A DNA stretch of 64,000 nt from a virus (IMGVR_UViG_3300044296_000239), one strand, 5' to 3'; positions 17,335 through 53,543 are shown, numbered from the stretch's first letter. Translations and numbers: made by a program. The notes: generated by a model from the letters alone, not told the origin.

Positions 17335-17335
17335 T

Positions 17336-18927: not shown

Positions 18928-19602
18928 TCTATCTTAGGATTTGATGTATCACGATATCGATAGTAACAATCAAAGTCTGGATCATACTTAAACTTTCCAT
19001 GCGGTGTGTCTATATACTCATTATATGGATCTTTATTCATGTGTCCCCCTACGTGTAAGGTACTTATAGAAGAAGTTACTGATCGGTCCATATACGTGGG
19101 CAAAACCAATCCAAATACGAAGGTACGGCAAGATGAAGCCGATGCCTGTCCTCGAGGGTGATAACTCCACGTCAACGGAAAGGGATACATGACTCAGAGT
19201 CCATACATGAAAGATGAGCCAATGAAAGCTTGCATCCCATGAATTCCATTCATCTCGAGCTCGATACGTGAAGCGTGGCACGAGCGGACACAAGTCGTTA
19301 CACCACAGCTGATGCAATGGATAGTGTTCCCACCAATTGAGTTCACGATAACACTCATTCATCTTGTTCATCCTTATCTTGCGGTAACATGTCACGGAAT
19401 ACGGTGACAGCATTGATTAGTTGGTTGCAACCTTCCCGATCCATCGTGAACTCACTGTATCCCATATTGAAGCTAACTCGATTGGTGTCTGTATAACCAA
19501 GTCGATAGAACGTGTGTGCTGGCTTTTCCTTCTTTTCTGGTGGGCTCACCTCTGCCACAGCCACGTCCTCTACTTTTTTCTTTGCCTTCAAAAAGTCTAA
19601 TA

Positions 19603-20100
19603 TCATAGTAAGCCTTCCTCTGTCTGTGGTGGTGCCGATGGGGTGGCATCACTATAACGATACACATACTCGGTCTTTGGTGTGTAGGGAAAATCTACGT
19701 AGACACGAGACTCTCGACACGTGTAGTGCGACTTATATGGATCTTCCTTCGTGCCGCTCCATTCCCAAAATACCTTACCATTGATGTCATATGCTCGATC
19801 GCTGCCATAGTCCTTGAACACATGCGATGCTCTCATGTTTTGGTAGTTGTGTCCGGTATCACGCCACTCCCAATCCTCACCAGTCAATGGCGTGATGGGC
19901 TCGAAGGATGCGATCTTCTTAAACAATGATATCGCATACGGCGCGGTGCTACCGCTGTGTCCTTCCTCTGCAAACACCTCGATCATCTTCATCACGTGCT
20001 TACAGATCATCTCTTGCATCTCATCATTAAACTTGCCATGCTCATCGACCCAACCCGCGGCACGAAACTCTGTCAATGCATGTCTCTCAAAATTATTCAT
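19603..20100 (-). CDS. hypothetical protein
   Basis: 165-aa ORF; C-terminal Pro-rich acidic tail encoded by a repeat shared with the ORF ending at 18634. Confidence 0.55.
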   Translation of the reverse strand: MNNFERHALTEFRAAGWVDEHGKFNDEMQEMICKHVMKMIEVFAEEGHSGSTAPYAISLFKKIASFEPITPLTGEDWEWRDTGHNYQNMRASHVFKDYGSDRAYDINGKVFWEWSGTKEDPYKSHYTCRESRVYVDFPYTPKTEYVYRYSDATPSAPPQTEEGLL

Positions 20101-20181
20101 CGTCTCTATCCTTATACTGGTTTACTAAATCGATGAACCAATAGATGAACACCGCGACTACGATAGCACAAACGATATAGA

Positions 20182-20394
20182 CTACCACGTCTCTTCTCCC
20201 CATAGTTCATATGAGAATGTACCAGGCAAACAGTTAAATTTAACCGGCACGTGCAACGTACCTATTGATCCAATTCCTGAAGACGCATCTACTTCAATCT
20301 CTACCAATTCATCCTTATCATAATGCACTGAGTCTAACACAGCGATGATGCGCGTGATGTCTTCATATGTCAACCTAATTTTTGTGCTACTCAT
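20182..20394 (-). CDS. small hypothetical protein
   Basis: 70-aa ORF in the coupled string. Confidence 0.4.
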   Translation of the reverse strand: MSSTKIRLTYEDITRIIAVLDSVHYDKDELVEIEVDASSGIGSIGTLHVPVKFNCLPGTFSYELWGEETW

Positions 20395-20777
20395 ACGATC
20401 GTCCTTATTGTGTGTACTGCTACCTCTTTGATGGTGAACTTACCATCGCTCTCCTTTGCTTTCTTATAGAAGTTATTCAATACATCACTGCCATAACCGC
20501 TCGTGCCAGTGCGATTCTTGTAACACTTATAGATGGATCCACTAACGTTGTGGAATTCATAGTGATCGTCTTCCTCTACCACCTTACAGATGCCCGAGGA
20601 TAATTTCCATGACTCGCTACCTAAATAGCTGCCATACCAATTACCGAACACCTTACAGATCGGTCCATCTGCAGATGTGTCATCCATCTCGAGGATGATC
20701 CATCGATCAGGGCAATAATCATAACTCATTATCAAACACTCCTTGTTGTTGCAATCGTATATGTGATTCGATCTCAT
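20391..20777 (-). CDS. hypothetical Cys-rich protein
   Basis: 128-aa ORF (the true start may be the internal MSYDY). Confidence 0.45.
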   Translation of the reverse strand: MRSNHIYDCNNKECLIMSYDYCPDRWIILEMDDTSADGPICKVFGNWYGSYLGSESWKLSSGICKVVEEDDHYEFHNVSGSIYKCYKNRTGTSGYGSDVLNNFYKKAKESDGKFTIKEVAVHTIRTIV

Positions 20778-21057
20778 CCATATACAATTCCTCTGCTTCT
20801 TCCACAGTCACGTCATAATACTTCATCACAAACTCTGTAGCTCTTGAACGACGCATGCTTTCCTCTCGTACAGCAACAAATTTATCATGATCTTCCTTGT
20901 TGCCAATACGATATCCACCGTCACCCGCATGGATATCTGCACCGACCATTACTTGTTTCAATAGATCACGTGCGTTACGAAGCGATCGATGTTCCTCTGG
21001 ATGTTCGATCACAAACTCAACCCATTCGAGTGCTTCTTTAATCTTTTGTTCGTTCAT
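20719..21057 (-). CDS. hypothetical protein
   Basis: 112-aa ORF. Confidence 0.45.
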   Translation of the reverse strand: MNEQKIKEALEWVEFVIEHPEEHRSLRNARDLLKQVMVGADIHAGDGGYRIGNKEDHDKFVAVREESMRRSRATEFVMKYYDVTVEEAEELYMDEIESHIRLQQQGVFDNEL

Positions 21058-21199
21058 GTCAGTAAGTTATTAATTGTGTCGATGATCATCTGTACCTGTG
21101 CTGGATCCAATTTCATTCGCGAAGCAATCTCATATACATCGAGGTGACGCTCGAGAAACTCGCGCACTTGCAGTATTAGATCATGCTTATAGCTCATGA

Positions 21200-21529
21200 T
21201 TATTCCTTCCAAAATTCTCCGATATCAAACCATCTGTCTTCGATGATGTGGCCAATTGCTTTAATCGGGCCAGTGAATTCATTGTCCTTACGTATGCGTA
21301 CGAGCTTGCCTTTTAGATCTTCCCACTCTCGCACATCGACAGTCTCAAGGATCTTGCGAATGGCTTGAATTGATTTGCTATGACCAATCTTACCAGCTTT
21401 TCCATCGAGCGCATAACCACCGAACCCTTGACCGCATCCACCCATATCCATCATCAATGAGAATGTCATGATGCCGTGGTCCTCGATGCCTAACATTGTC
21501 GAACTAATCTTTGCATTCGTTACGTACAT
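21200..21529 (-). CDS. hypothetical protein
   Basis: start trimmed to MYVTNAK (RBS GGAG; stop/start overlap TGA/ATG with the upstream gene). Confidence 0.45.
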   Translation of the reverse strand: MYVTNAKISSTMLGIEDHGIMTFSLMMDMGGCGQGFGGYALDGKAGKIGHSKSIQAIRKILETVDVREWEDLKGKLVRIRKDNEFTGPIKAIGHIIEDRWFDIGEFWKE

Positions 21530-21530
21530 A

Positions 21531-21893
21531 TCAACTCCATGTCCTATGGACCTCTGCGATCCACTCTTTTCCATCATATTCATCGACTTCCCAATCCACG
21601 CCATCAGGTACATCAACGATCTTAAGATCTGAGAATCGACTATTTGCTGCTTCACCGAACTGCTCGATCACAGCAATCAAATCTTCATCAGCGCGATTAC
21701 GTCTAAATTCATAGTCACTGATGTAGTGATCATCCTCACCCTCATGGCCTTCGTGGTAATAATCATGACCGGTCAAATTGAAATACTTGCCTTTGACCTT
21801 CACATACTTGATGCCTTTGCGATCAAGCAAAGCATCGAATGCTTCCTCTGATAGACCGAATCCACCGTAGCATGTATTAATTGCAACTTTCAT
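21531..21893 (-). CDS. hypothetical protein
   Basis: 120-aa ORF MKVAINTCYGGFGLSEEAFD... Confidence 0.5.
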   Translation of the reverse strand: MKVAINTCYGGFGLSEEAFDALLDRKGIKYVKVKGKYFNLTGHDYYHEGHEGEDDHYISDYEFRRNRADEDLIAVIEQFGEAANSRFSDLKIVDVPDGVDWEVDEYDGKEWIAEVHRTWS

Positions 21894-22068
21894 TATCTAA
21901 ATCCTTCTGTACTTTTTTCAATGCTTTAATCAGATGTGGGATTATCTTCTGATCGAAGTTTACGACGTAGAGACCGTAGTCCATCATTCTCAAGCATAGA
22001 CGACCTTTCTCTGTATAAACTTCTAGTCTCGGATTCCCGACGTGATCCTTTATCATATGTCTGCTCAT
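21877..22068 (-). CDS. small hypothetical protein
   Basis: 63-aa ORF. Confidence 0.35.
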   Translation of the reverse strand: MSRHMIKDHVGNPRLEVYTEKGRLCLRMMDYGLYVVNFDQKIIPHLIKALKKVQKDLDNESCN

Positions 22069-28862: not shown

Positions 28863-29079
28863 TCTTCTTTTTCAAATAACCTAAATTCATCCCTTCAGCT
28901 TCAAGCTTTGCTTTAATGGGATTACTCAATAACTTCACAATGTCCTCAGGATCGATCATACGCTCTTTGCAGATATCAATTACTGCATCGAGGTATGTTC
29001 CTCGATCCTTAGTCACTCGCTCTTGAATTAGATTCGAGAACGACTTCTTTGTGAACATTCCGTCTGGTTGTTCTGACAT
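28843..29079 (-). CDS. late-transcription coactivator gp33-like (tentative)
   Basis: 78 aa; the C-terminal pattern KERMIDPEDIVKLLSNPI...KKNELTFD loosely resembles gp33; consistent with T4 order 33-59-32. Confidence 0.4.
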   Translation of the reverse strand: MSEQPDGMFTKKSFSNLIQERVTKDRGTYLDAVIDICKERMIDPEDIVKLLSNPIKAKLEAEGMNLGYLKKKNELTFD

Positions 29080-29564
29080 TTTTCAATTGCCCTATAATAA
29101 ATGTGGCTACCAATAGTGGTTACCTTTTCAACGCCTCTCCAACCTGGATTGACATACGTTGCATGATAGAATGTTGATCCTTGTGTAACGTCTACTTGTC
29201 TGTAGTAGTACATCTTCAAAGCTTCTTGCACTGCTTCAAGAGATTCGTGCCATCTGCTTGCTTCTTTAGCGGGTAAATTACCCATCAACTTTCTATCACA
29301 TGTCCAAGAGAATTGACAAACTGTCTTCTCTGTTTCTGGATTTTTGTTTTTCTGATAAACTACTTCACATGCTTTTTTTGGAAAGCCGTTTGCGTTCATC
29401 CTATTTAATACTACATGCGTCACAGCAATCTGTGACATCTGCGAATCTCCATACGCTTCGTAGTATGCATTACGTGTTAGACAATATACATCTTGGTCAT
29501 TTAATGGTATCGGATTGATTAAAGCCGACAGCCACGCGGTGATCGCGACTAATATTTCTGTCAT
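29028..29564 (-). CDS. SleB/CwlJ-family cell-wall hydrolase (Hydrolase_2-like) with signal peptide
   Basis: 178 aa; N-terminal hydrophobic leader; NAYYEAYGDSQMSQIAVTHVVLNRM resembles the SleB core. Confidence 0.5.
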   Translation of the reverse strand: MTEILVAITAWLSALINPIPLNDQDVYCLTRNAYYEAYGDSQMSQIAVTHVVLNRMNANGFPKKACEVVYQKNKNPETEKTVCQFSWTCDRKLMGNLPAKEASRWHESLEAVQEALKMYYYRQVDVTQGSTFYHATYVNPGWRGVEKVTTIGSHIYYRAIEKCQNNQTECSQRSRSRI

Positions 29565-31564: not shown

Positions 31565-32368
31565 TTATTTGCTACCAACTGGAACGACTGGTTGTGCAGA
31601 TCCACCAATGATGAGTGTCTGACCTTTGAAGTTAGCGATAGCACCAGGCAATTCACGTAGATACTGTGCTTGTGCTTCAGCCGTCATCAATGGGATCATC
31701 GTTGGGTTTGCTTGCATAGACTCATTACGTTTTTTAGCGGTAGCAACTTTGATCTCTTCAGTCTTCAGTTCGTTCTTTGCTTTAACCAATTCATTTGCAG
31801 ATGCAACGATTGAGTCTGCTGGAAGAACATTACGCACGAGAACTTGAGAGATGGTGATTGTACCATCGAGCTTTTCATCAGCAAGTGTCTTAGTAATATA
31901 TTCTTTGATTTCTTGTTCCATCTGACCACGATTGTCAGCCATATTTAGAGCTTCATATTTACGTGCAGATTTGTAGATAGCATTACGAGCTGCATTAAAG
32001 ATGTAGTTGTACATCAAATAAGTGTCGCCATTGTGAACAGCATGGAATGATTTATTCTTACTGTTATAGATCTCTGCTACTTGAGATTGATTGATGTTAT
32101 AGATGACGATGGCATCAAAGTCCTTCATCGTTGAGTTATCAGCTGCAAGAGGAGTCAAGTCTTCAACTTTAACTGCAACCTCTTTTACTGGAAATGTCAT
32201 GACTGAACCGATGATCGTTTGATTAAACGAACCAGGCAAAAGTTCATCAGTCTTAACTTGTTTGTCGAAGCCAACACGCAAACCAACTTCACCGGTCTCA
32301 ATACGTGTACATGCAGGCAATGCTGCAACAGCCATGGCAATTGCCAAAAGTTTCATAGACGTCTTCAT
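31565..32368 (-). CDS. SPFH/band-7 (prohibitin/HflC-like) domain lipoprotein
   Basis: lipobox LPAC after the signal peptide MKTSMKLLAIAMAVAA; EVGLRVGF...DAIVIYNI...AIYKSARKYE is typical of SPFH; start trimmed to MKTSM (RBS AAGGA). Confidence 0.55.
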   Translation of the reverse strand: MKTSMKLLAIAMAVAALPACTRIETGEVGLRVGFDKQVKTDELLPGSFNQTIIGSVMTFPVKEVAVKVEDLTPLAADNSTMKDFDAIVIYNINQSQVAEIYNSKNKSFHAVHNGDTYLMYNYIFNAARNAIYKSARKYEALNMADNRGQMEQEIKEYITKTLADEKLDGTITISQVLVRNVLPADSIVASANELVKAKNELKTEEIKVATAKKRNESMQANPTMIPLMTAEAQAQYLRELPGAIANFKGQTLIIGGSAQPVVPVGSK

Positions 32369-32655
32369 ATAAATCCTTAAAATAAAATCACGATCAATGT
32401 CATTGTAGCCACTGCTAACAGCGTACACACAAGACTATACATTACCAACTTTGCTACTGACCACTTCTCACGTTTAGTGAGTTGTAGGAATGTTGGAATT
32501 CCAACATAGAATACAGCAAAGATGATCAAGAATACGAGCCAAAGTCGAATCATATAGTTCCTTAAAAAGTGCCGGTTACTCCGTCCGGCGACCTATGCAG
32601 CCAGATTCTCCCGAATGTGGTGGTCAGTCTAAGCTTCTTTTAGGAAAGGAGCTGC

Positions 32656-34472: not shown

Positions 34473-34495
34473 ATCAATGTTTACATGCTTTTATT

Positions 34496-34503
34496 TATAA
34501 ATA
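34496..34503 (+). promoter_or_regulatory. T4-type late promoter TATAAATA; the near-palindrome TATTTATAAATA can be read on both strands
   Basis: exact TATAAATA 54 nt upstream of the ATG at 34557; the same element in reverse could serve the divergent gene 33951..34472. Confidence 0.5.
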
Positions 34504-34508
34504 CATCC

Positions 34509-34531
34509 AGAGGCAAAAAATGCCTCTTTTT
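34509..34531 (+). terminator. leader stem-loop with U-tract (attenuator/terminator-like) between the late promoter and the operon start
   Basis: AGAGGCA-aaaaa-TGCCTCT followed by TTTTT. Confidence 0.4.
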
Positions 34532-34556
34532 ACACAACAACAACGGAATTTCAAAA

Positions 34557-35225
34557 ATGTACAAAAAGGTCGCCACAAGCGTGCTTTTTGTTATGTTTAC
34601 ATTAAACGCTTGGGCAGTAGATCCAATCGTAACTGACTCGACTTCAAATAGCACTGCATATTCAAAATCCGATACAACTACTAAAGTTATATCTCCACCT
34701 CCAACTGCTGTTGCACCAGCTGTAACAGTAATCAACAATGACGTTTGTGCCACAGCAGCTAGTGGTGCAGTTCAAACACAGATTCTTGGCATCTCTATGG
34801 GCGGTACAGTTAGAGATATGAATTGTGAAAGAATCAAACTATCAAAGAATCTATATGACATGGGCATGAAAGTTGCAGCTGTTGCAACGCTATGTCAAGA
34901 TGATCGTGTATTCCAAGCTATGTTAGATGCCGGTACACCATGCCCAGTTATGGGTAAAATTGGCGAATCCGCAAAAGAAGTTTGGATTCAACGCGGTCGT
35001 GTTAGCGAAAAAGATATCGTAAAACAAACTCCTGAAAAAGCAAAGGAAGAACCACTAAGAGAAACTGGTAAAGATGGAAAGGAGGCGCAGGAGACTTCAC
35101 AGTCAAATGCTGAAACGTTTCCAGTCGCAAGACAGTCAACTGTGGTGGCAAATCCCCTCTGTGCTGCTGATCCTAAAGTTGCTGCTGGTGATCCTGTAAG
35201 AAAAGCTGAACTCGGCTGTAACTAA
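34557..35225 (+). CDS. secreted protein (signal peptide), first gene of the late plus-strand operon
   Basis: start trimmed to MYKKVATSVLFVMFTLNAWA|VDP; Thr/Ser-rich region, 4 Cys. Confidence 0.6.
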   Translation: MYKKVATSVLFVMFTLNAWAVDPIVTDSTSNSTAYSKSDTTTKVISPPPTAVAPAVTVINNDVCATAASGAVQTQILGISMGGTVRDMNCERIKLSKNLYDMGMKVAAVATLCQDDRVFQAMLDAGTPCPVMGKIGESAKEVWIQRGRVSEKDIVKQTPEKAKEEPLRETGKDGKEAQETSQSNAETFPVARQSTVVANPLCAADPKVAAGDPVRKAELGCN

Positions 35226-35227
35226 TC

Positions 35228-37630
35228 ATGCGCAAGTTTCTAGTATTCATTTACTGGACTTTTGCTGTTGTTGCTGTGTGGAGTGGTGATATTGTTGCTC
35301 CACAAGCACAAGTTGGTTCAGTAATAAACACAGTCACTGATACTTCTACGACTGCTAACCTAATCACGTCACCATTATCGCCAACTGTTAATGCTACTAC
35401 ACCAGGTGGATTCACTGGTGGTAGTTCAGTTGGATACAATGCATCAACTAATGCGTATTATTTTGGCTATATGCAAAGAACTATTGCTACTTCTGTAGCA
35501 ATTAATAATGCATTACAGGGTAGCGGTGTACAGGTGAATGGTGTTAAGTATGGTATGACATATCTTAACGGTGCTGATTCATATGGCACATTAAGCATGG
35601 CAGTTAATGTTACTAGTAACACTGGCACAACTCTACAGTCATATAATCATTCATTTAATACTCAAAACTCTACTTGGCAGCAGTTTGACCAAACACAAAC
35701 GTTTACTAACCCATATGCTTTAGCAAATTTGGGCAATGTTAGCATGTCCATTACAGGCAAAGACTCTCGTTTTTGGGCAGGTTATTATGGTCCACAAGTG
35801 AAAGATCCATATCTTAAACTAACATACGGTTCTGATCCTAAGACATACTATAACATTTCTGATGATGGTTATGTTCCAGTTGCTTTACCATTTACGTTTC
35901 CATTTTATGGTAGAAACTTTACACAATCATATTTCTTTTCCAATGGTGTAGTTGGTTTCTTAGATCCTACCACTCATTGGAATAGTTTTTGTTGTGATGG
36001 TGTAAATTTAACTAACAATCCTGGATCTCCATGGCATTTCGCGATCTATGCTTTGCAGACAGACTTGATTGCAGCAAATGCAAATGCTAAGTTCTATACA
36101 CAAACTGATAGTAGCTCATACATGAAGTATGCATGGAGCAACATCAACGAATATGGTACACAAAACTTAAACACATTCAGTGCAACTATTAAGCCAACCG
36201 GTTATATTGGTATCCAACATGATGCTATCAACGTTCAGTATCATAACGTAACGACTGGCATCGCAGGTGATTTATCACAAGGTCAATATAGTCAATACTA
36301 TAATGGTCCAGGAAGATCATTTCCATATACAGCTGGTTCTGTGATCACTTTTACTGGAACAGAAACAAATCTATGTTTCTCTAATCCATTAAGTAACCCT
36401 TCGTGTCCAGGATATGCAGCTGCGTACTACTCACAGCAGTGTTCTATTAGTGCACTGTATGACTCATCATGTCCAGGATATGCAGCTGCATATTTAGATC
36501 AACAGTGTTCGGCTAATCCATTATATTCCACAACTTGTCCTGGGTATGAAAGAGCATATTTTAATCAACAATGCTCTTTAAATCCACTATACAACATCAA
36601 TTGCTCTGGATATGCTACTGCTTATCACAATCAACAGTGTTCATTAAATCCTCTTTATGCAACAGATTGTGTTGGTTATGCAGATGCTTATTATGTTCAA
36701 CAATGCACAGCAAATCCGCTATATGATAGCGGATGTACAGGTTATGCAGCTGCATTTAAAGCTCAACAATGTAGTTTAAATACATTATATGCAACAGACT
36801 GTCCAGGTTATGCTCAAGCATATTTCAATCAACAATGTTCTCTGAATGGACTCTATGATAGACTTTGTCCTAATTATTCTACTGCTTATGCTACCAAAAT
36901 GTTGCTCGAACAACAAAATACTGCTAGCATCGTTGCCACCGCTGGTGTTGTTGCTTCTACTGCACCTAGCACTAGCACAGGAACTGCCACCACATCAGTG
37001 AGTAGTGATGGTACTGTATCAACTACTACTACATCAGCAACTGGTAACACAACAGTTGATAAAGTAGTTGCTGCACCAACAAGTACAACAAACACAGCTG
37101 CAGCTCCTGCCGCTCCAGTTCAATTAGTACAATCAGCACCTCCTCCATCATCACCAGTTGCACCTCAACAACAGGCTTCACAACAAGAAAAGAAACCTGA
37201 AGGTGGTCAACAAAAACCTGAAGGTAGTAGTCAACAACAAGCTGGTGGACCACAACAACAAGGCGGAGGTCAACAAGGTGGTGAGAAAACACAACCGACT
37301 AATCGTCAAGCTTTAGCTGAACGTAGATTAGAAGCTGCGCGAGCAAAAGCAGTTGAAGAAGGTAAAAATATGGCAGGCGAAATTGGTAAAGCATCAGATC
37401 TTGAAGCACAAAAAGCAGTACAAGGCGTTGTCGTTGCTGCTATGAACTTCGTTCCAGGATTTGATCGTTATTCAACAGTGTTTGTACCAGATGTGATCGG
37501 CTATAAACCGTTTACTGTCTATAATAATCAAAAAACCGTAGATAATGCTAGATTGATGAGAGGATTATCTGGTGCCTCAGATAGATTACATGAGGAAATC
37601 GTAGCATCACAATATAACAAAGGAAATTAA
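35228..37630 (+). CDS. large secreted/exported protein with 7.5 Cys-containing 22-aa tandem repeats, Thr/Ser-rich and Gln/Pro-rich low-complexity regions
   Basis: 800 aa; N-terminal signal-like MRKFLVFIYWTFAVVAVWSG; repeats CPGYAxAYxxQQCSxNPLYxxx x7.5; C-terminal QQQASQQEKKPEGGQQKPEG. Confidence 0.75.
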   Translation: MRKFLVFIYWTFAVVAVWSGDIVAPQAQVGSVINTVTDTSTTANLITSPLSPTVNATTPGGFTGGSSVGYNASTNAYYFGYMQRTIATSVAINNALQGSGVQVNGVKYGMTYLNGADSYGTLSMAVNVTSNTGTTLQSYNHSFNTQNSTWQQFDQTQTFTNPYALANLGNVSMSITGKDSRFWAGYYGPQVKDPYLKLTYGSDPKTYYNISDDGYVPVALPFTFPFYGRNFTQSYFFSNGVVGFLDPTTHWNSFCCDGVNLTNNPGSPWHFAIYALQTDLIAANANAKFYTQTDSSSYMKYAWSNINEYGTQNLNTFSATIKPTGYIGIQHDAINVQYHNVTTGIAGDLSQGQYSQYYNGPGRSFPYTAGSVITFTGTETNLCFSNPLSNPSCPGYAAAYYSQQCSISALYDSSCPGYAAAYLDQQCSANPLYSTTCPGYERAYFNQQCSLNPLYNINCSGYATAYHNQQCSLNPLYATDCVGYADAYYVQQCTANPLYDSGCTGYAAAFKAQQCSLNTLYATDCPGYAQAYFNQQCSLNGLYDRLCPNYSTAYATKMLLEQQNTASIVATAGVVASTAPSTSTGTATTSVSSDGTVSTTTTSATGNTTVDKVVAAPTSTTNTAAAPAAPVQLVQSAPPPSSPVAPQQQASQQEKKPEGGQQKPEGSSQQQAGGPQQQGGGQQGGEKTQPTNRQALAERRLEAARAKAVEEGKNMAGEIGKASDLEAQKAVQGVVVAAMNFVPGFDRYSTVFVPDVIGYKPFTVYNNQKTVDNARLMRGLSGASDRLHEEIVASQYNKGN
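36404..36895 (+). repeat. in-frame 66-nt tandem repeat array (about 7.5 units) inside the 800-aa CDS
   Basis: units beginning tgtccaggatatgcagctgc... recur every 66 nt with diverged wobble positions; each unit encodes two Cys. Confidence 0.8.
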
Positions 37631-37631
37631 A

Positions 37632-37952
37632 ATGGCAACACAAGATACAAAGGGCGCATTCATAGAGAAGTTGTTATTTGCTCTATTACCGCTGATCATG
37701 GCAGGTGTAGGTTATTTACTAAATTCAGTAAGTCAACTTAATCACCAAGTAACAATTTTAGAAAGCAAAGTAAGTCTAGTAGTTACACAGGATAACAAAC
37801 AAGCATCTAACACTGGTAGTGAACTTGCTCGTGAAAAACTACGCCAAGACTTAACAGAAGCAATTCAAAAGAATCGTGATGCGATCCAGGCGAATAAAGA
37901 AATGATTGCTATTATCGAAGAAAAATTAAAACACATGAACAAAGGAAAGTAA
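37632..37952 (+). CDS. small membrane protein with coiled-coil
   Basis: 106 aa; TM LLFALLPLIMAGVGYLL; ATG overlaps the upstream stop. Confidence 0.6.
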   Translation: MATQDTKGAFIEKLLFALLPLIMAGVGYLLNSVSQLNHQVTILESKVSLVVTQDNKQASNTGSELAREKLRQDLTEAIQKNRDAIQANKEMIAIIEEKLKHMNKGK

Positions 37953-37953
37953 A

Positions 37954-38466
37954 ATGTCAGAAGAAATCAAAAGCGTCGATGCAAAGATTGACGAAGCAGA
38001 AGCCGCTGTAAAGAAGTATGCTAGTAAAGATACAGTAATCAGCATTGGTGGATATGAATTTACACCAGCTAAGTTGATGGTTGCGTTTACATTAGCATCA
38101 TCAATTCTTGGTGGTTTATATGGAACGTTTGAAGTCTACAAAGACTATCAAAGTATGAAGAAGCGTATCGCTGAGTATGTTGCGCCGGACCTTTCAGAAC
38201 TTCAAGCTAAGATGGATATCGTAGTTGAAAAGTCAGAGAAGTCTGTTCAATACACTCAAGATATTAAGAATGATCTTAAACAAGACATTCGTCGTTTAGA
38301 AGGTGTGGTTGATTCAGTTGAACGTAATTCAAAAGCAACTGAACGTGAGTTGAGTGTAGATATGAGAAACCTTCGTAAAGAAACTGAATTAGCTATTAAA
38401 GAAACTAATTCTAATGTTGATAAGAAGATTCAACGAGCATTAGATAACCCGTTAGCTAACAAATGA
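37954..38466 (+). CDS. membrane protein with coiled-coil
   Basis: 170 aa; TM LMVAFTLASSILGGLYG; coiled C-terminus. Confidence 0.6.
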   Translation: MSEEIKSVDAKIDEAEAAVKKYASKDTVISIGGYEFTPAKLMVAFTLASSILGGLYGTFEVYKDYQSMKKRIAEYVAPDLSELQAKMDIVVEKSEKSVQYTQDIKNDLKQDIRRLEGVVDSVERNSKATERELSVDMRNLRKETELAIKETNSNVDKKIQRALDNPLANK

Positions 38467-38578
38467 TTAATGTACTCATAGATTTATGGGTGAATCATGT
38501 ACTACATCTTTGGTTTATGCCATACTTTATAGCAGGTAAAACCACAGAGAATGAACTGCACGAATGTGCAAAAAGAAA

Positions 38579-38601
38579 GGGAGCGTAAGCTCCCTTTTTT
38601 T
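38579..38601 (+). terminator. rho-independent terminator (bidirectional)
   Basis: GGGAGC-gtaa-GCTCCC followed by T7; near-copy of the 16379-16401 element. Confidence 0.7.
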
Positions 38602-38782
38602 ATTTCTTCTTAGTATCTTCTACTTCAAGCTTTTTGTGTTTCTTGATCTCTTTGCATTGCTCAGTTACTTTTCCTGTCTTTGCATCCTTAACTTCTACAC
38701 AAGCCTTTTCTTTTTTGACCTCTCCTGCATACACATATTGTGTGCCTAAGGCGATACAAATTGCCAATAAAATTTGTTTCAT
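38600..38782 (-). CDS. small secreted Lys-rich protein
   Basis: 60 aa; signal peptide MKQILLAICIALGTQYVYA. Confidence 0.4.
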   Translation of the reverse strand: MKQILLAICIALGTQYVYAGEVKKEKACVEVKDAKTGKVTEQCKEIKKHKKLEVEDTKKK

Positions 38783-39001
38783 TTATTTTCCTTTCGATGA
38801 AAATTTTTCTGAAGCTGTAAATCCTAAACCAGCTACTACTATATACATCATTGAATCAAACAACGCTGGTGTAACTTTATGACCAAGAGTATCAGCCACA
38901 AATCCACCAGCACATAACAAGAATGACAAGAGAGTAATAACTCTTTTTGAAGAAACAGTCCCGTTATCTCCATCTTGTAACATACTTGATAACCAATTCA
39001 T
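38783..39001 (-). CDS. small two-TM protein, holin-like
   Basis: 72 aa; two hydrophobic helices, charged C-terminus; lies in the candidate lysis cassette. Confidence 0.4.
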   Translation of the reverse strand: MNWLSSMLQDGDNGTVSSKRVITLLSFLLCAGGFVADTLGHKVTPALFDSMMYIVVAGLGFTASEKFSSKGK

Positions 39002-39002
39002 T

Positions 39003-39527
39003 TTATAACTCTGGTTGTGGTGGTTGCACAGGCATTGGTTTACCCGTTGAACTCATTACAACTTGCGGTGTGAAGTTGGCAACTGGTGCTTGAATCACTA
39101 CAGGTTGTGGAGGAGGAGTTGGATTTAAGATAGCAGCTTGTGCCAATGTATTTTTCGCTGCAGCATCTGCATTTGCTTGTGCTTGCTTTTGCGCTTCTAA
39201 CATTGCCTTTTGATCTTCTGGTTTTTGACCAGCTAACATGATACCAGAGAGAGTACCAGTTAAGAACGTCGCGATAGGTACAATCAACTCAAAGAATTTT
39301 TGGTCGATAGGACTAATCGCATTCAGTGGTTGTGTAACGAAGATCAATGAATACAAGACAACGAATACGATTCCGAATAATGTAAGTGTTAGACAAATGC
39401 CGATGAAAAATTTTAATCGAGCCATCAGCTGCTCTTCTGTGTATATGAAATTATTTTCCACAGTTGGCTCCTTGATTAGTAGGTTGTACACTAATTGCTT
39501 TACTTTGTTGAGTAGTATCTTTATCAT
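39003..39527 (-). CDS. membrane protein with Ala/Gln-rich helix and Pro-rich C-terminus (i-spanin-like)
   Basis: 174 aa; TM FFIGICLTLTLFGIVFVVLYSLIFV; then AMLEAQKQAQANADAAAKN...PPPQPVVIQ. Confidence 0.45.
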   Translation of the reverse strand: MIKILLNKVKQLVYNLLIKEPTVENNFIYTEEQLMARLKFFIGICLTLTLFGIVFVVLYSLIFVTQPLNAISPIDQKFFELIVPIATFLTGTLSGIMLAGQKPEDQKAMLEAQKQAQANADAAAKNTLAQAAILNPTPPPQPVVIQAPVANFTPQVVMSSTGKPMPVQPPQPEL

Positions 39528-39738
39528 CTGGCATTCCTAATCTAGGGTCTCTTCCACCCTTAAAAACATGTTCTGGACAAGTTCTCGTCACGTCACATAG
39601 TGGTTTCTTACACATCTCTTTATCCCAATTGTGGGGATCTTGACATGGGTATCTAAATTTATCTTCGCTAAAAATTGCTAATCCTAATGGAAATAGTAAA
39701 AGCAATAATAGCCATCTTACTAGCTTTATATCACTCAT
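39451..39738 (-). CDS. small secreted Cys-rich protein (o-spanin-like position; no lipobox)
   Basis: 95 aa; signal peptide; 6 Cys; its 3' end overlaps the downstream gene in another frame. Confidence 0.4.
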   Translation of the reverse strand: MSDIKLVRWLLLLLLFPLGLAIFSEDKFRYPCQDPHNWDKEMCKKPLCDVTRTCPEHVFKGGRDPRLGMPDDKDTTQQSKAISVQPTNQGANCGK

Positions 39739-39739
39739 A

Positions 39740-40405
39740 TTATGCTCCCATTACATGCAGAGCGTGTTGATAGTGGGCAATTCGATCTTCTAGACCGATG
39801 AATCCGCCATTAATCGCTTTTGTTAATCCTTTGATATCACCTGCATCTGCAAATTTATTTAGGTTATTATTTTCCCAGAACCAACAAGCAGATTGTGCGG
39901 CACCTTCAAACGTTTGTAGGTATTCTGCGGCTTCTTCTACTGGAATATCTAATGACGCAGCAAACCAAGAATAGTTTGATTTACCAGTCAATTGGATTAG
40001 ACCTCGACCACAGTAACGATATCCGTCACCTGTTTCAGGTCCACCGTTACCCATACGGTTTGCATAAACTAAGTTAGCAATTGCTTCTTGTTTATTTGGC
40101 TTAGAAGCATATTCATTTGCCATCTCATCTGTCGGGAAATACTTCGGAAAGATTTTACGAAGTGTTACAGCTTTATAATTTAAGTTTTCCTTAAGAACCA
40201 TAAACCCACCGGATTCATGTGCGCATTGCGCAATAAATGCAGCAATTCGCTGTGGTGTGTTTATCTCATATTCTGGTAGCAATTGTGCTAGTGCACGGTG
40301 CCAATGGTCAACGTATGGATTCTTTGGGAGAAGCTGTTTTAATTGTTCTAATGATAATTCCATCTTCACTCCAATATATGTTGAATAATTCATGTCATAT
40401 GACAT
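39740..40405 (-). CDS. GH19 family endolysin
   Basis: 221 aa; YRYCGRGLIQLTGKSNYSWF GH19 core. Confidence 0.75.
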   Translation of the reverse strand: MSYDMNYSTYIGVKMELSLEQLKQLLPKNPYVDHWHRALAQLLPEYEINTPQRIAAFIAQCAHESGGFMVLKENLNYKAVTLRKIFPKYFPTDEMANEYASKPNKQEAIANLVYANRMGNGGPETGDGYRYCGRGLIQLTGKSNYSWFAASLDIPVEEAAEYLQTFEGAAQSACWFWENNNLNKFADAGDIKGLTKAINGGFIGLEDRIAHYQHALHVMGA

Positions 40406-40518
40406 GTTACTATTTATATGTTACATATATCGGGAGCGAAAAAAGGGGACAAACGTCCCCTTATATCTATCCCCTGGCCCTTATAGATCTATCTATAAAA
40501 AGCCATTTCTCTGCAGCG

Positions 40519-40836: not shown

Positions 40837-41289
40837 TTAGAATGAAACTTTCAAACCAGCAGAAACTACATTACCATCAAAGTTATTTACGCGAGATTGA
40901 ATCGCGCTTTGATAGCGATAATCTGCAGTCAATGCGACTGATTTAGTTAATGAATAGCTTGCGCCTACACCAACTGAGCCTTGCCAACCACTAGCAGTAG
41001 ATGTTGGATCAACAAATGCAACACCAACTTTAGGAGTAATAGTAACTCCAGCAACTGTTGCTACATCATAACCAGCAACTAAGCTGTAACGATTAGTGTC
41101 ATTAGAGTTTTGTGTATAGCGTTCAAATCCGCCAGTAACAGAAGTCTTACCAAACTTTTCGCCGAGTGTTACACCAAAACCATTTTTATCTGGATTTTGT
41201 GAATAATCACGTTGAGCTGTAAGACCAACTTCTACTGCTTGTGCAGAACCTGCTACTAACAATGCTAAAATAGCTAATTTAACTTTCAT
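40837..41289 (-). CDS. outer-membrane beta-barrel protein (OmpX/Ail/Lom-like 8-strand type)
   Basis: 150 aa; signal MKVKLAILALLVAGSAQA; alternating hydrophobic beta-strands with Gly/Tyr girdles; C-terminal beta-signal ending in Phe (GLKVSF). Confidence 0.6.
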   Translation of the reverse strand: MKVKLAILALLVAGSAQAVEVGLTAQRDYSQNPDKNGFGVTLGEKFGKTSVTGGFERYTQNSNDTNRYSLVAGYDVATVAGVTITPKVGVAFVDPTSTASGWQGSVGVGASYSLTKSVALTADYRYQSAIQSRVNNFDGNVVSAGLKVSF

Positions 41290-41324
41290 TGAAATATTTC
41301 CTTTTCTAGTTTAAAGATCAAGAG

Positions 41325-41704
41325 TTGGTTTTTCTGTTACGAGGTAAACCAACTTAAACCCTAAGCAGCGTTTAGGCTGCTAATGCATAACTTTCGTCAT
41401 TTGCATTTACTTAGTTTGCTTCTTCGGCCAAGTTTCCTCAACCCTACGGGTTTCACATTCCCGTGTTGCCGTCTCTACTATCTACCTCTGTCGAAACCAT
41501 GGCATCCCCATCAAAAACATACTAAGGTGAAATGAACTTACTAAGTAGAGGTTCCGGCTTACCAATCCTGATCCCAACCTTTCGGTTTTGTAGAGATTTA
41601 AGTATGTTTTTGGTGGAGATGGGCGGAGTCGAACCGCCGTCCAGAAGTCCTTCGCTTTGAAGGGATTACAACAATTCCTCGTCCACTTTCTTCCAGCTAT
41701 TTTT
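41325..41704 (-). ncRNA. ssrA: circularly permuted (two-piece) tmRNA gene (ssrA); acceptor piece about 41611-41704, coding piece about 41325-41510
   Basis: coding piece: GGGGAUGCCAUGGUUUCGAC...GGGAAUGUGAAACCC (P2) ...GCA AAU GAC GAA AGU UAU GCA UUA GCA GCC UAA = ANDESYALAA*; upstream acceptor piece: T-arm GGCGG-UUCGACU-CCGCC then CAUCUCC-A-CCA, which pairs with GGGGAUG; candidate promoter TGGACA-N16-TATACT at 41711-41738. Confidence 0.7.
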
Positions 41705-41832
41705 GCCTTCAGTATAGTGTCCTATATATTTTTGTCCAGTCTCTTGATCTATTAATAACCATTTACCAGGACATTTTGTGCGAATAGTTAAAGTTTTAGC
41801 TTCATCTAATTCTTTAACACTTGTACCATCTT

Positions 41833-42435
41833 TTAATTTACGTTTTCTGTCCATGTTGCAACAATATATTTTTCATTAGAAATAGGAGGATTGCCGCGAT
41901 GAGTATGTGTATATCCAACAGGGAAAAGAACAATTCTTCCTTTTTTTGGTTTAATTCTTCTAGGATAATACAAAAATTCAGTTTCTCCACCCTCGTCAAC
42001 ATCATTAAGATAAATCAAAATGGCCAATATTCTATTACTATCTTCTTTTCCACTATTTTCATAATGCCATACATGATATCCACCACCTACCGATGTTCGT
42101 TGAAGTCTATGACCCCATAATCCATAGCCTCTAGACAATAAAACATCATATTTTTTATTATATTCATCAATACATTCACGAATGGCTTTATTCATGACAC
42201 CAGCTAAGAATGTATTAATGACTTTTACATCATCCAAATGTTCTTCATGTAAAAAATATGTTGTATCATCTTTGTGAACTTTTTCAATTCTTTCAGCTTC
42301 TTGTCTACTAAACGTACGTTTATTAGTTAATGCCCATTGATCCACATAATGGTAATGATTAATCAATTGTTCACAAATAGTTTCTGGCAAAATATCATCA
42401 AATACACCAATAAAATCTTGAATATCACTTTTCAT
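41833..42435 (-). CDS. 2OG-Fe(II) oxygenase, prolyl-4-hydroxylase-like
   Basis: 200 aa; GGETEF, HTHRG and C-terminal strand GRIVLFPVGYTHTH; paralogue of 48077..48622. Confidence 0.65.
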   Translation of the reverse strand: MKSDIQDFIGVFDDILPETICEQLINHYHYVDQWALTNKRTFSRQEAERIEKVHKDDTTYFLHEEHLDDVKVINTFLAGVMNKAIRECIDEYNKKYDVLLSRGYGLWGHRLQRTSVGGGYHVWHYENSGKEDSNRILAILIYLNDVDEGGETEFLYYPRRIKPKKGRIVLFPVGYTHTHRGNPPISNEKYIVATWTENVN

Positions 42436-43034
42436 TTTAATTTGTCTCTCATTTCTTCATATAATTCTGTTCGCTTAGCTGCATTGATAACTCCACCGGT
42501 GATTCGCTTAGTCATACCGATCATATCTTCAGCATCAGCATAAGCATTTAAATCTTTAATCATCCACACCCAACATGCTGAATGTACAGCGCCTTGTGGT
42601 GTGATGATATAATCTAATACATCTTCTATGCCAAAACCTGCATGTTCTGCAAATTTTCTATATGAATCTTTTCCAGTGATATGTAATAAGCCTCGTCCTT
42701 TATAGCGAGAACCATCACCAGATTCTTCACTACCATTTCCAAATCTATACGCATATATTCTATTTGCGATAGAATTTTCTTTATGCATATATGCTTCAGC
42801 AATCACTTGATTATTAAAGTGAGCAGGAAACAATATCATTAAATTGTTTCTGCTATAATTTAGATTTTCTTCAACGCACCTGAACTCTAACGACTCATAT
42901 GATGCTTGTGAAACAAATGCCGCCACACGCTTAAGCGTATTAATCTTATACTTATCAAAGAATAGCTTGAATGCCTCTATCCAAACTTTTTCTTCGATTA
43001 CTGATTCAAGCTTATCATAATATAATTGTAACAT
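42432..43034 (-). CDS. GH19 family lysozyme (third GH19 paralogue)
   Basis: 200 aa; SRYKGRGLLHITGKDSYRKF. Confidence 0.7.
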   Translation of the reverse strand: MLQLYYDKLESVIEEKVWIEAFKLFFDKYKINTLKRVAAFVSQASYESLEFRCVEENLNYSRNNLMILFPAHFNNQVIAEAYMHKENSIANRIYAYRFGNGSEESGDGSRYKGRGLLHITGKDSYRKFAEHAGFGIEDVLDYIITPQGAVHSACWVWMIKDLNAYADAEDMIGMTKRITGGVINAAKRTELYEEMRDKLK

Positions 43035-52975: not shown

Positions 52976-53051
52976 TGGTACCCAGTGTTGGACTCGAACC
53001 AACATCGCTCTCCTTGTAAGGGAGACGTATCACCTCTCTACGCAACTGGGC
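52976..53051 (-). tRNA. tRNA-Val(UAC)
   Basis: manual fold: acceptor GCCCAGU/ACUGGGU, anticodon loop CUUACAA, T-loop UUCGAGU, CCA encoded. Confidence 0.7.
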
Positions 53052-53174
53052 ATAATTCTTTGGGGTGTCATACGAGTATCGATCTCGTACCACCAGTTTC
53101 ACAGACTAGTATGCAGGCCACTACACTAATGACACCATAGATCAAAATACACTCTTTGAATACACTTTGATTTA

Positions 53175-53249
53175 TGGTAGGGGCACAGAGAATCGAACTC
53201 TGATTTACTGGTTAAAAGCCAGTTACTTTAGCCGTTAAGTTATACCCCC
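53175..53249 (-). tRNA. tRNA-Lys(UUU)
   Basis: acceptor GGGGGUA/UGCCCCU, anticodon loop CUUUUAA, T-loop UUCGAUU, CCA encoded. Confidence 0.7.
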
Positions 53250-53277
53250 ATCATCTTTCGAGGTTTATGTTTTCGTT

Positions 53278-53469
53278 TCATCGTCTTTTCTTCCATTCAT
53301 AATCGATACCATCTGGACATACTCCGTTTTTCACAGAATCTATACCAAACTTACCGCATACTTCCATGTTGTTTCCTTTGATTGTTACAAATGTACCCAA
53401 TTCTTTTGCGTACTCTAATGCTTCATCAAGTGTTTTAAATTGTTTTTCGTTTATACTATACATTATCAT
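53278..53469 (-). CDS. small hypothetical protein inside the tRNA array
   Basis: 63-aa ORF between tRNA-Lys and tRNA-Gly. Confidence 0.4.
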   Translation of the reverse strand: MIMYSINEKQFKTLDEALEYAKELGTFVTIKGNNMEVCGKFGIDSVKNGVCPDGIDYEWKKRR

Positions 53470-53470
53470 T

Positions 53471-53543
53471 TGGAGCGGGAGACGGGATTCGAACCCGCTC
53501 CGTCAGCTTGGAAGGCTGAGTCCTCTCCCAGGAGAACTCCCGC
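53471..53543 (-). tRNA. tRNA-Gly(UCC)
   Basis: acceptor GCGGGAG/CUCCCGC, anticodon loop CUUCCAA, T-loop UUCGAAU, CCA encoded. Confidence 0.7.

What the first reader, a model, noticed from the sequence alone, without database searches (positions are those of the whole stretch)
34476..38601. Late-promoter operon for secreted proteins, including an 800-aa protein with Cys-containing 22-aa tandem repeats
This four-gene plus-strand unit sits within a mostly minus-strand region. It is preceded by an exact T4 late-promoter motif TATAAATA and a leader hairpin with a U-tract. It ends at a strong terminator that is nearly identical to the one after the tape-measure-like gene. The first two genes encode proteins with cleavable-looking signal peptides. 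The second carries 7.5 in-frame copies of CPGYAxAYxxQQCSxNPLYxxx (two Cys per unit), a Thr/Ser-rich tract and a Gln/Pro-rich tract. The last two genes encode bitopic membrane proteins with coiled coils. Exported, disulfide-rich repeat proteins under late control are not an expected part of a T4-like virion module. They could form an envelope-remodelling, adhesion or superinfection-exclusion system, or be an unusual fibre component.
Basis: partly seen in the sequence, partly recalled or inferred. Interest (0 to 1): 0.7.

Follow-up and report, generated by a model that had tools for sequence, protein, structure and literature searches.

The report
Conserved phage operon for exported envelope proteins
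A late-transcribed operon in a T4-like aquatic phage encodes a secreted cysteine protein, a sugar-binding "head on a stalk" protein and membrane-anchored coiled coils; the three-gene core recurs, uncharacterised, in thousands of aquatic phage sequences and probably acts on the host envelope around lysis.

Summary
Window 34496-38601 (+) holds a TATAAATA motif, a leader hairpin, four tightly packed genes (g1 222 aa, g2 800 aa, g3 106 aa, g4 170 aa) and a bidirectional terminator. g1 and g2 have signal-peptide-like N-termini. g2 has 7.5 exact 22-aa Cys repeats, then Thr/Ser-rich and Gln/Gly/Pro-rich tracts.

New findings:
- g1, g2 and g4 form a three-gene core conserved in about 100 of the fetched aquatic phage loci, including cultured Pelagibacter and Roseobacter phages. 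It is absent from isolate bacterial genomes. g3 is lineage-specific.
- The repeats are predicted as short helices plus loops, not curli-like beta strands. Copy number ranges from 2 to 15 among homologues.
- g2 proteins share a C-terminal module of about 110 aa behind very different heads.
- g4 is a bitopic coiled coil that almost always ends in NPL-x.
- A late-promoter-like motif is conserved upstream of g1.
- The core often sits beside endolysin and holin-like genes.

No component matches a family of known function, and I found no paper describing it. My best reading (0.35) is an inner-membrane-tethered, glycan-binding periplasmic complex acting at lysis or egress. Receptor masking or superinfection exclusion is the main rival.

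The parts
34492..34503 (.). Two overlapping divergent TATAAATA motifs (T4-type late promoter -10). The + copy at 34496-34503 is 54 nt upstream of g1. The - copy at 34492-34499 faces the 173-aa gene that ends at 34472.
   Evidence: An NTAAATA motif is conserved upstream of g1 in 70 of 109 related leaders.
34509..34532 (+). Leader stem-loop (7 bp, 5-nt loop) followed by UUUUU.
   Evidence: dG -10.1, z -2.8. Leader hairpins with z below -2 occur in 31% of related leaders, at the same place but with different sequences.
34557..35225 (+). g1: secreted 222-aa protein. It has a signal peptide (cleavage after AWA), a Thr/Ser/Pro-rich N-terminal part and an invariant 4-Cys core at residues 64-130. A C-terminal extension with 2 more Cys is present in only a subset of homologues.
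   Evidence: 1620 clusters at 50% identity. No Pfam or PDB match. The AF2 model is unusable.
35228..35284 (+). g2 signal peptide (residues 1-19).
   Evidence: an N-terminal hydrophobic leader in all aligned homologues.
35315..35827 (+). g2 head domain 1 (about residues 30-200): lectin-like beta-sandwich.
35840..36352 (+). g2 head domain 2 (about residues 205-375): second beta-rich domain. Some homologues carry an unrelated domain here.
   Evidence: No Pfam match.
36374..36913 (+). g2 repeat stalk (residues 383-562): a half unit plus 7.5 units of 22 aa, C-P-G-Y-A-x-A-Y-x-x-Q-Q-C-S-x-N-P-L-Y-x-x-x. Each unit is predicted as a 12-residue helix plus a 10-residue loop, and the region holds 16 Cys.
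   Evidence: No Pfam or PDB match. Copy number is 2-15 among homologues.
36914..37297 (+). g2 disordered tether: Thr/Ser/Ala-rich (residues 563-640), then Gln/Gly/Pro-rich (residues 641-690).
   Evidence: Composition. pLDDT below 50.
37298..37630 (+). g2 conserved C-terminal module (residues 691-800): basic helices followed by a conserved motif of about 75 aa.
   Evidence: An HMM of this module finds HTVC115P gp53 (E 8.5e-8) and genes of variable length directly after g1 in other lineages.
37632..37952 (+). g3: 106-aa bitopic membrane protein (TM at residues 15-33) with a helical C-terminal part. It is lineage-specific and occupies the variable slot between g2 and g4.
   Evidence: No homologue in the fetched loci. 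Other phages have unrelated small genes in this slot.
37954..38466 (+). g4: conserved 170-aa bitopic protein. It has a cytoplasmic N-terminus of about 38 aa, a weakly hydrophobic Gly/Ala/Ser-rich TM, a periplasmic coiled coil and the C-terminal tip ...ALDNPLANK.
   Evidence: (95 of 100 unique members end in NPL-x1-3). CRP-810 gp51 and CRP-207 gp73 are members.
38572..38601 (.). Bidirectional intrinsic terminator shared by the g1-g4 operon and the convergent minus-strand cassette.
38600..40418 (-). Associated convergent lysis-type cassette: TATAAATA (40411-40418), GH19 endolysin (39740-40405), m95 (39451-39738), m174 (39003-39527), m72 (38783-39001) and m60 (38600-38782). In about 30 relatives, homologues of m95, m174 and m72 follow g4 on the same strand.

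Best explanation
The operon encodes a phage-specific exported envelope complex made late in infection.

Shown:
- g1 and g2 have Sec-type leaders and even numbers of Cys.
- g4 (and g3) are single-pass membrane proteins.
- g1, g2 and g4 are inherited together in many aquatic phages.
- g2 is modular: a lectin-like head, a Cys-containing helical-repeat stalk of variable length, a disordered tether of about 130 aa and a conserved C-terminal module.

Inferred:
- g4 sits in the inner membrane with its coiled coil in the periplasm.
- g4, together with the highly conserved g1, holds the C-terminal module of g2.
- The stalk and tether of g2 project the head across the periplasm to bind a host-specific wall or outer-membrane glycan.
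- Because the core is repeatedly placed with endolysin and holin-like genes under late control, I think the complex works at the lysis or egress step. It would either couple the inner membrane to the wall or outer membrane so that the envelope fails cleanly once the wall is cut (a role analogous to spanins), or set the timing of that step.

The anatomy is well supported. The function is a best guess.
For: Late control: TATAAATA lies 54 nt upstream of g1, and the motif is conserved in relatives.

Export: leaders are conserved across divergent homologues. g2 has 18 Cys and g1 has 6 Cys.

Core conservation: g1, g2 and g4 co-occur in 81 of the 129 fetched loci, many of which are truncated. They are also present in the cultured phages HTVC115P, HTVC202P, Mosig, CRP-810 and CRP-207.

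Phage-only distribution: there are 37 hits among 185,579 species genomes, all in MAG or SAG contigs of incoherent taxonomy.

Structure: AF2 model; lectin fold.

Link to lysis genes:
- The window's cassette converges on a set made of a GH19 endolysin and four small membrane or secreted proteins that has its own TATAAATA.
- In about 30 loci, m95, m174 and m72 follow g4 directly on the same strand. In L075 the order is GH19-g1-g2-g4-m95-m174-m60.
- GH19 lies beside the core in 9 loci and a GH24-type lysozyme in 5 loci. The L006 copy of that lysozyme matches PDB lysozymes at E 2e-24. CHAP lies beside the core in 1 locus.
- No lipobox ORF lies near the window's lysis genes.
Against: - No component matches any holin, spanin or antiholin family.
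- Neither g1 nor g2 is a lipoprotein, so this is not a canonical spanin.
- CRP-810 has a separate pair (a TM coiled-coil protein plus a lipoprotein) just upstream of its g1. That pair could be its real spanin.
- In many T4-like relatives the upstream neighbours are nrdA and nrdB, not lysis genes.
- In HTVC202P the M15 peptidase lies 20 kb from the core.
- These genomes carry several wall hydrolases, so some adjacency is expected by chance.
- A host-variable lectin head fits receptor binding better than a generic lysis step.
- No contacts between the proteins were computed.
Confidence: 0.35

Rival explanations
1. Receptor masking or superinfection exclusion. The lectin head of g2 binds the same host surface glycan that the phage, or competing phages, use as receptor. 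Alternatively the complex blocks entry in the periplasm. Either way it would protect the infected cell from secondary infection, or stop progeny being wasted on debris. g1 could inhibit an incoming tail lysozyme, as T4 Spackle does.
Against: There is no similarity to Imm, Sp, Cor, Llp or other exclusion proteins, and nothing in PADLOC. Late-only promoters suit exclusion poorly. No route across the outer membrane is encoded in the core.
Confidence: 0.25
2. Lysis-timing device. g4 (with g3, or with the tandem g4 paralogues seen in some phages) would be a single-TM holin or antiholin. g1 and g2 would be periplasmic regulators or sensors, by analogy with T4 T and RI.
For: g4 has an N-in, C-out single-TM topology with a large periplasmic part, like T4 holin T. 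Its TM is weakly hydrophobic and rich in Gly, Ala and Ser, which is SAR-like. Many loci carry tandem g4 paralogues. The core is adjacent to endolysins.
Against: There is no Pfam hit to the holin T or RI families. A separate 2-TM holin-like gene, m72, is already present. An 800-aa lectin protein is not needed for known antiholin mechanisms.
Confidence: 0.15
3. Cell-surface adhesin ('sibling capture'). g2 would be displayed on or released from infected cells to stick them to neighbouring host cells, as has been proposed for phage-encoded curli.
For: g2 has the head, stalk, Thr/Ser-rich linker and anchor architecture typical of adhesins. The concept has been published for pelagiphage curli modules (PMC9599517, PMC7029224 as cited in PMC9004378).
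Against: No secretion channel is linked to the core. The repeats are predicted helical rather than curli-like, and there is no Curlin hit. The partner g4 is an inner-membrane protein.
Confidence: 0.1
4. Virion component: an accessory fibre that joins particles.
For: Some jelly-roll hits are to tail fibres and tailspikes. In the podoviruses the core lies in late or structural regions.
Against: The proteins carry Sec signal peptides and their partner is a membrane protein. The operon lies outside the baseplate and tail block of this T4-like genome.
Confidence: 0.05

Closest known systems
Two-component spanins (lambda Rz/Rz1 type)
   Same: Both are late and linked to the lysis cassette. Both have a single-pass inner-membrane protein with a periplasmic coiled coil and a conserved C-terminal tip (g4), plus secreted Cys-containing partners. 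Both are predicted to span the periplasm.
   Different: There is no outer-membrane lipoprotein and no lipobox in g1 or g2. g4 has a cytoplasmic N-terminus of about 38 aa. An 800-aa lectin-stalk protein has no counterpart in spanins. CRP-810 has a separate spanin-like pair.
F-box-associated (FBA) sugar-binding domain of Fbs1/FBXO2 and Fbs2/FBXO6, and bacterial CBMs
   Different: Identity is only 13-16% and the hit is below the Pfam threshold. The context is a secreted phage protein, not a cytosolic ubiquitin-ligase subunit. The ligand is unknown.
Pelagiphage curli (type VIII secretion) modules
   Same: Both are phage-encoded exported machinery absent from the host. Both occur in the same phage groups (pelagimyophages, the Melnitz-like tmRNA-bearing T4-likes). 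Both have repeats of about 22 aa rich in Gln and Asn.
   Different: The genes are different. There is no CsgA, CsgF or CsgG match in the genes tested. The g2 repeats are predicted as helix plus loop with two Cys, not a beta-solenoid.
T4 Spackle/Imm and T5 Llp (phage exclusion and receptor-masking proteins)
   Same: All are small phage-encoded proteins that are secreted or membrane-bound and act in the envelope.
   Different: There is no sequence similarity. Those proteins are made early. None has a modular lectin-stalk partner.
DUF948 / YoxC membrane-anchored coiled-coil proteins
   Same: JGI names g4 'YoxC'. Both have a TM followed by a coiled coil.
   Different: The Pfam score is 13.7 bits against a cut-off of 37.2. 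The resemblance is probably only architectural.

Membership tests
T4-type late promoter | TATAAATA -10 element a short distance upstream of a late gene, with no -35 element | tested here: met
   34496-34503 lies 54 nt upstream of g1. NTAAATA occurs in 64% of related leaders against 4% expected. Five of the other six copies in the window precede gene starts, including baseplate genes and the endolysin.
T4-type late promoter | Dependence on gp55/gp33 and late timing | not testable with these tools
   No expression data are available, and gp55/gp33 were not looked for in the window.
Sec-dependent secreted protein (g1, g2) | Positively charged n-region, hydrophobic h-region and a small-x-small cleavage site | tested here: met
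   g1 reads MYKK-VATSVLFVMFTL-NAWA|V and g2 reads MRK-FLVFIYWTFAVVAV-WS|G. Leaders are present in all aligned homologues despite sequence drift. This was judged by eye and by hydropathy; SignalP was not available.
Two-component spanin | i-spanin: N-terminal TM with a periplasmic coiled coil | tested here: inconclusive
   g4 has a single weakly hydrophobic TM and a helical C-terminal part, but the TM is preceded by about 38 cytoplasmic residues. The coiled coil was not computed.
Two-component spanin | o-spanin: small outer-membrane lipoprotein with a lipobox Cys | tested here: not met
   There is no lipobox in g1, g2, m95 or m60. The only lipobox ORF in the window is at 61254-61973.
Curli subunit (CsgA/B) | Curlin repeats that form a beta-solenoid, with linked CsgG/CsgF | tested here: not met
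   No Curlin repeat hit. AF2 gives a helix plus a loop per unit. Of the window genes, only g1-g4, the lysis set and about ten neighbours were scanned against Pfam, and none is CsgG or CsgF. The rest of the window, and of the genome, was not scanned.
FBA (PF04300) lectin domain | FBA-type beta-sandwich fold | tested here: met
FBA (PF04300) lectin domain | Sequence membership above the Pfam gathering score | tested here: not met
   14.6 bits against a cut-off of 32.4.
T4 holin T / antiholin RI | Sequence match to the family profiles | tested here: not met
   No Pfam, PHROG or NCBIfam hit for g1, g3 or g4.
Known anti-phage or exclusion proteins | Match to PADLOC models | tested here: not met
   The only hit is a ZorA coiled-coil tail at E 9e-4 for g4, which is an architectural resemblance.

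The most novel reading that the evidence does not exclude
g1-g2-g4 is a previously unrecognised class of phage envelope machinery. It would be a three-part, inner-membrane-anchored, lectin-tipped tether that spans the periplasm. The stalk would be built from a new disulfide-stapled 22-aa helical repeat, with a length tuned by copy number. The machinery would be carried by some of the most abundant aquatic phages (SAR11, Roseobacter and freshwater T4-like jumbo phages). It would perform a step of lysis or egress, or of receptor control, that holins, endolysins, spanins and known exclusion proteins do not explain.
Probability: 0.3. Interest if true: 0.8.

Novelty: new variant of a known kind. 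Interest (0 to 1): 0.62.

Why it matters
Lysis and envelope-control genes of pelagiphages and their relatives are largely unidentified, although these phages drive much of bacterial mortality in oceans and lakes. This work defines a conserved three-gene module that is found only in phage sequences. g1 alone has 1620 clusters at 50% identity, and each component returned thousands of homologues. It gives a domain map, a candidate ligand class (glycans) and a testable link to lysis. It also defines a new Cys-containing helical repeat with no Pfam or PDB match. Finally, it flags probable misannotations ('lysozyme', 'OmpA family', 'TonB') in deposited phage genomes.

Tried and rejected
- Curli idea. 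The 22-aa Gln/Asn-rich repeats and the tmRNA-bearing, Melnitz-like phage suggested a missing CsgA-like fibre. I rejected this because AF2 predicts a helix plus a loop, there is no Curlin hit, and pelagiphage curli modules are a separate, already described gene set.
- NIDO-like second domain. I recalled this from the FPFYG motif, but there is no Pfam support even at E of 10 or less.
- g1 structure. The AF2 model has pLDDT 46 and is unusable, so no fold search was run.
- g1 domain fusions. Longer g1 variants carry no Pfam domain, and the 'OmpA family' label of CRP-810 gp53 has no Pfam support. The weak DUF1576 hits fall on a hydrophobic stretch and I set them aside.
- Roseophage 'lysozyme' adjacency. 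I first counted it as lysis linkage and then withdrew it. CRP-810 gp51 and CRP-207 gp73 have no Pfam family. They share the g4 architecture, including the C-terminal NPL tip, and an iterative profile search starting from them recovers the g4 ORFs. Pairwise BLASTP to g4 is significant for gp73 (2e-5) but finds nothing for gp51.
- Searches that found nothing. Megablast of the operon and tblastn of g2 against GenBank phages. TRF on the DNA. PADLOC. PDB sequence searches with g1, g2 and the repeat region.
- The afdb50 fold library was not available.
- Pairwise BLAST of g2 against the pelagiphage g2-like proteins was not significant. Only the profile of the C-terminal module linked them.

Full report
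CONTEXT
The window comes from a large T4-like phage.
- Minus-strand genes at 1.7-12 kb match T4-type baseplate wedge, hub/tail-lysozyme and tube-cap families. A gp32-like SSB and a gp59-like loader lie at 27-29 kb.
- There are about 25 tRNA genes and a permuted betaproteobacterial-type tmRNA.
- The operon has no nucleotide match in GenBank phages.

THE OBSERVATION
- TATAAATA is at 34496-34503.
- A 7-bp leader hairpin followed by U5 is at 34509-34532 (dG -10.1, z -2.8).
- Four + strand genes lie 1-2 nt apart: g1 34557-35225, g2 35228-37630, g3 37632-37952, g4 37954-38466.
- A 13-pair bidirectional terminator is at 38572-38601, shared with a convergent operon. A similar hairpin (18/21 identical) follows the 571-aa ORF ending at 16275.
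- g2 carries a half unit plus 7.5 units spaced exactly 22 residues apart, with Cys at positions 1 and 13. These are followed by a Thr/Ser/Ala-rich tract and a Gln/Gly/Pro-rich tract.
- The repeat units are only 65% identical in DNA. Codon positions 1 and 2 are 71% identical and position 3 is 52%. They are therefore old copies kept by selection on the protein, and TRF does not see them.

IS THE PROMOTER MOTIF MEANINGFUL?
By count alone it is not: 7 copies against 7.35 expected. By position and comparison it is.
- Six of the 7 copies lie directly upstream of gene starts in the right orientation. These include baseplate genes and the endolysin.
- In 109 unique g1 leaders from related loci, NTAAATA lies 30-110 nt upstream in 70 cases, against about 4% expected.
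- The exact octamer is present in 27 of 107 leaders, against about 1% expected.
- A stable hairpin (z below -2) follows the motif in 31% of leaders. It occupies the same place but has unrelated sequences.

HOMOLOGUES AND THE CONSERVED CORE
Each of g1, g2 and g4 has thousands of metagenomic homologues. Apart from automatic JGI labels on some g4 homologues ('YoxC', 'YacL'), none carries a name, and none has a Pfam domain.
- A profile search with g1 found 1620 clusters at 50% identity, all small proteins.
- In the 129 loci fetched by then, g1 was found in 122 and g4 in 97. g1, g2 (or its C-terminal module) and g4 were found together in 81. Many loci are truncated.
- g3 has no homologue anywhere. 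The slot between g2 and g4 holds unrelated small genes in other phages.
- A scan of one genome for each of 185,579 species found only 37 loci. All are in MAG or SAG contigs whose assigned taxa are incoherent (Bifidobacterium, archaea, Melainabacteria and others), which points to mis-binned phage DNA.
- Related contigs reach 327-332 kb and carry phage-type genes.

Cultured carriers:
- Pelagibacter phages HTVC115P (gp54, gp53, gp49), HTVC202P (gp24-26) and Mosig (00202-00200).
- Roseobacter phages CRP-810 and CRP-207. Their 'lysozyme' genes, gp51 and gp73, have the g4 architecture: GGY/F motif, TM, coiled coil and a C-terminal NPL tip. They have no Pfam family. An iterative profile search seeded with them recovers the g4 ORFs, although pairwise BLASTP to g4 is significant only for gp73.

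ANATOMY
g1:
- It has a signal peptide, a Thr/Ser/Pro-rich segment and a core of about 70 aa with four invariant Cys (C64, C90, C113, C129).
- The closest 120 relatives are 63-91% identical to it, which is higher than for g2.
- Its AF2 model failed (pLDDT 46).

g2 (AF2 with 47 sequences, mean pLDDT 72):
- Residues 30-375 form two beta-rich domains (pLDDT about 90).
- Each 22-aa repeat is predicted as a 12-residue helix plus a 10-residue loop (pLDDT about 87). This is not a curli-like beta-solenoid. The repeat has no Pfam or PDB match.
- A pattern count of units ranges from 2 to 15 among 130 homologues. Among the 12 closest homologues, a looser count of unit starts gives 6-13.
- Residues 563-690 are disordered.
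- Residues 691-800 form a conserved module. An HMM of it detects HTVC115P gp53 (E 8.5e-8) and genes of 284-810 aa directly after g1 in other lineages. The g2 position therefore holds a family with a constant C-terminal module and exchangeable heads. HTVC202P gp25 begins with a sequence I read as CBM-like.

g4:
- Its consensus is ...TVISIGGYEFTPAKLMVAF..VSS.LGGLYGAFEVYKDY...APDLS...coiled coil...ALDNPLA.
- 95 of 100 unique members end in NPL followed by 1-3 residues.
- The g2 repeat loops contain the same tripeptide (NPLY). This may be coincidence or may indicate a shared binding partner.

GENOMIC ASSOCIATION
- In the window the operon converges on a minus-strand set. That set consists of TATAAATA, a GH19 endolysin, m95 (signal anchor, 5 Cys), m174 (2 TM), m72 (72 aa; one segment passes the hydropathy threshold and a second hydrophobic stretch is visible by eye; holin-like) and m60 (secreted, basic).
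- In about 30 related loci, m95, m174 and m72 follow g4 directly on the same strand. In L075 the order is GH19-g1-g2-g4-m95-m174-m60.
- GH19 lies beside the core in 9 loci. A GH24-type lysozyme lies beside it in 5 loci, and the L006 copy matches PDB lysozymes at E 2e-24. CHAP does so in 1 locus and a Peptidase_S11 carboxypeptidase in 5 loci.
- This linkage is recurrent and involves unrelated hydrolase families. It is not universal, however. The commonest upstream neighbours in the T4-like relatives are nrdA, nrdB and a 379-aa four-TM protein. These genomes also carry several wall hydrolases.
- The window has no lipobox ORF near its lysis genes.
- CRP-810 has an i-spanin-like gp54 plus an unannotated lipoprotein ORF just upstream of its g1. 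This argues against a simple 'spanin replacement'.

INTERPRETATION
Well supported: this is a late, exported, phage-specific three-protein envelope module. It has an inner-membrane anchor (g4), a highly conserved secreted Cys protein (g1) and a modular protein made of a lectin head, a stalk, a tether and a docking module (g2).

Inferred: g4 and g1 hold the g2 C-terminal module, and the head reaches wall or outer-membrane glycans.

I rank the possible functions as follows:
1. A role in lysis or egress, either spanin-like envelope coupling or control of that step (0.35).
2. Receptor masking or superinfection exclusion (0.25).
3. A holin/antiholin-type timing device (0.15).
4. An adhesin for 'sibling capture' (0.10).
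5. A virion fibre (0.05).

The variable head favours a host-specific glycan ligand, which keeps the masking hypothesis close behind the first.

COMPARISON WITH THE LITERATURE
- Papers on Melnitz and the pelagimyophages describe phage curli (CsgGF) modules and a two-piece tmRNA in related phages (PMC9004378, PMC9599517). They do not describe this cassette.
- The CRP-810 paper does not discuss these genes.
- I found no description of the module in the searchable library.

VERDICT
The finding is real. It is an uncharacterised but widespread phage module with a new repeat type. Its mechanism remains open. Interest 0.62.

Noticed in passing
window 41315-41737 (-): Phage-encoded permuted (two-piece) tmRNA of betaproteobacterial type with tag ANDESYALAA (Rfam beta_tmRNA 122 bits, tmRNA_permuted 132 bits). 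This is similar to the two-piece ssrA reported for the OM43 phage Melnitz, and it hints at a betaproteobacterial or methylophilaceous host.
   Followed up: partly
window 40837-41289 (-): A 150-aa gene next to the tmRNA matches small outer-membrane beta-barrel families (OMP_b-brl E 1.9e-7), so the phage encodes an outer-membrane protein. A weak Porin_4 gene also lies near the cassette in L007.
   Followed up: no
window 52976-58863 (-): An array of about 25 tRNA genes covering most amino acids. One of them, tRNA-Ile (tat) at 54444-54538, is unusually long (95 nt).
   Followed up: no
window 6406-7737, 39740-40405, 42432-43034 (all -): Three separate genes carry a GH19-type muramidase/chitinase domain. 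One lies next to the gp5-like baseplate hub (probably tail-associated). One heads the lysis-type cassette. The third lies beside a 2OG-Fe(II) oxygenase gene.
   Followed up: partly
window 38600-40418 (-): Candidate lysis cassette with its own TATAAATA: GH19 endolysin, m95 (signal anchor, 5 Cys) overlapping m174 (2 TM, Pro-rich tail), m72 (72 aa, holin-like) and m60 (secreted, basic, 2 Cys in the mature part). None of the four small proteins has a family of known function.
   Followed up: partly
window 14000-22000: A block with higher GC (0.42-0.47 against about 0.33 in the flanking baseplate region). It includes the 571-aa + strand ORF 14560-16275, which has no PHROG match and is followed by a hairpin related to the operon terminator.
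   Followed up: no
window 29028-29564, 31565-32428 (-): Further envelope-related genes lie upstream of the operon: a SleB-type cell-wall hydrolase (Hydrolase_2) and an SPFH/Band-7 membrane protein. Related loci carry DUF4337 membrane proteins and fatty-acid desaturases next to the cassette. Together this suggests an envelope-directed gene island.
   Followed up: partly
L130 (CRP-810) 6387-6809; L131 (CRP-207) 3292-3873: The genes deposited as 'lysozyme' and 'putative lysozyme' have no Pfam family. They share the g4 architecture, including the C-terminal NPL tip, so the annotation is probably wrong. The labels 'OmpA family protein' (CRP-810 gp53, a g1 homologue) and 'tonB' (MW202481, in the g2 position) also lack Pfam support.
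   Followed up: yes
L130 (CRP-810) 4541-5043: gp54 (80 aa, N-terminal TM plus coiled coil) is followed by an unannotated 86-aa ORF with a lipobox (LLSAC). This is a candidate i-spanin/o-spanin pair directly upstream of that phage's g1 homologue.
   Followed up: partly
L007, L044, L049, L056, L089 (downstream of g4): In five related phage contigs a Peptidase_S11 (PBP5-like D-Ala-D-Ala carboxypeptidase) gene follows the cassette. This is an unusual wall-remodelling enzyme for a phage.
   Followed up: no
window 61254-61973 (-): This is the only ORF in the window with a canonical lipobox (239 aa, MKKVILAAAIAAALTGC...). Its function is unknown.
   Followed up: no
g4 C-terminus (window 38440-38463) and g2 repeat loops: The tripeptide NPL is nearly invariant at the extreme C-terminus of g4 family members. 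It also recurs in every g2 repeat loop as NPLY. It could be a shared recognition motif or a coincidence.
   Followed up: partly
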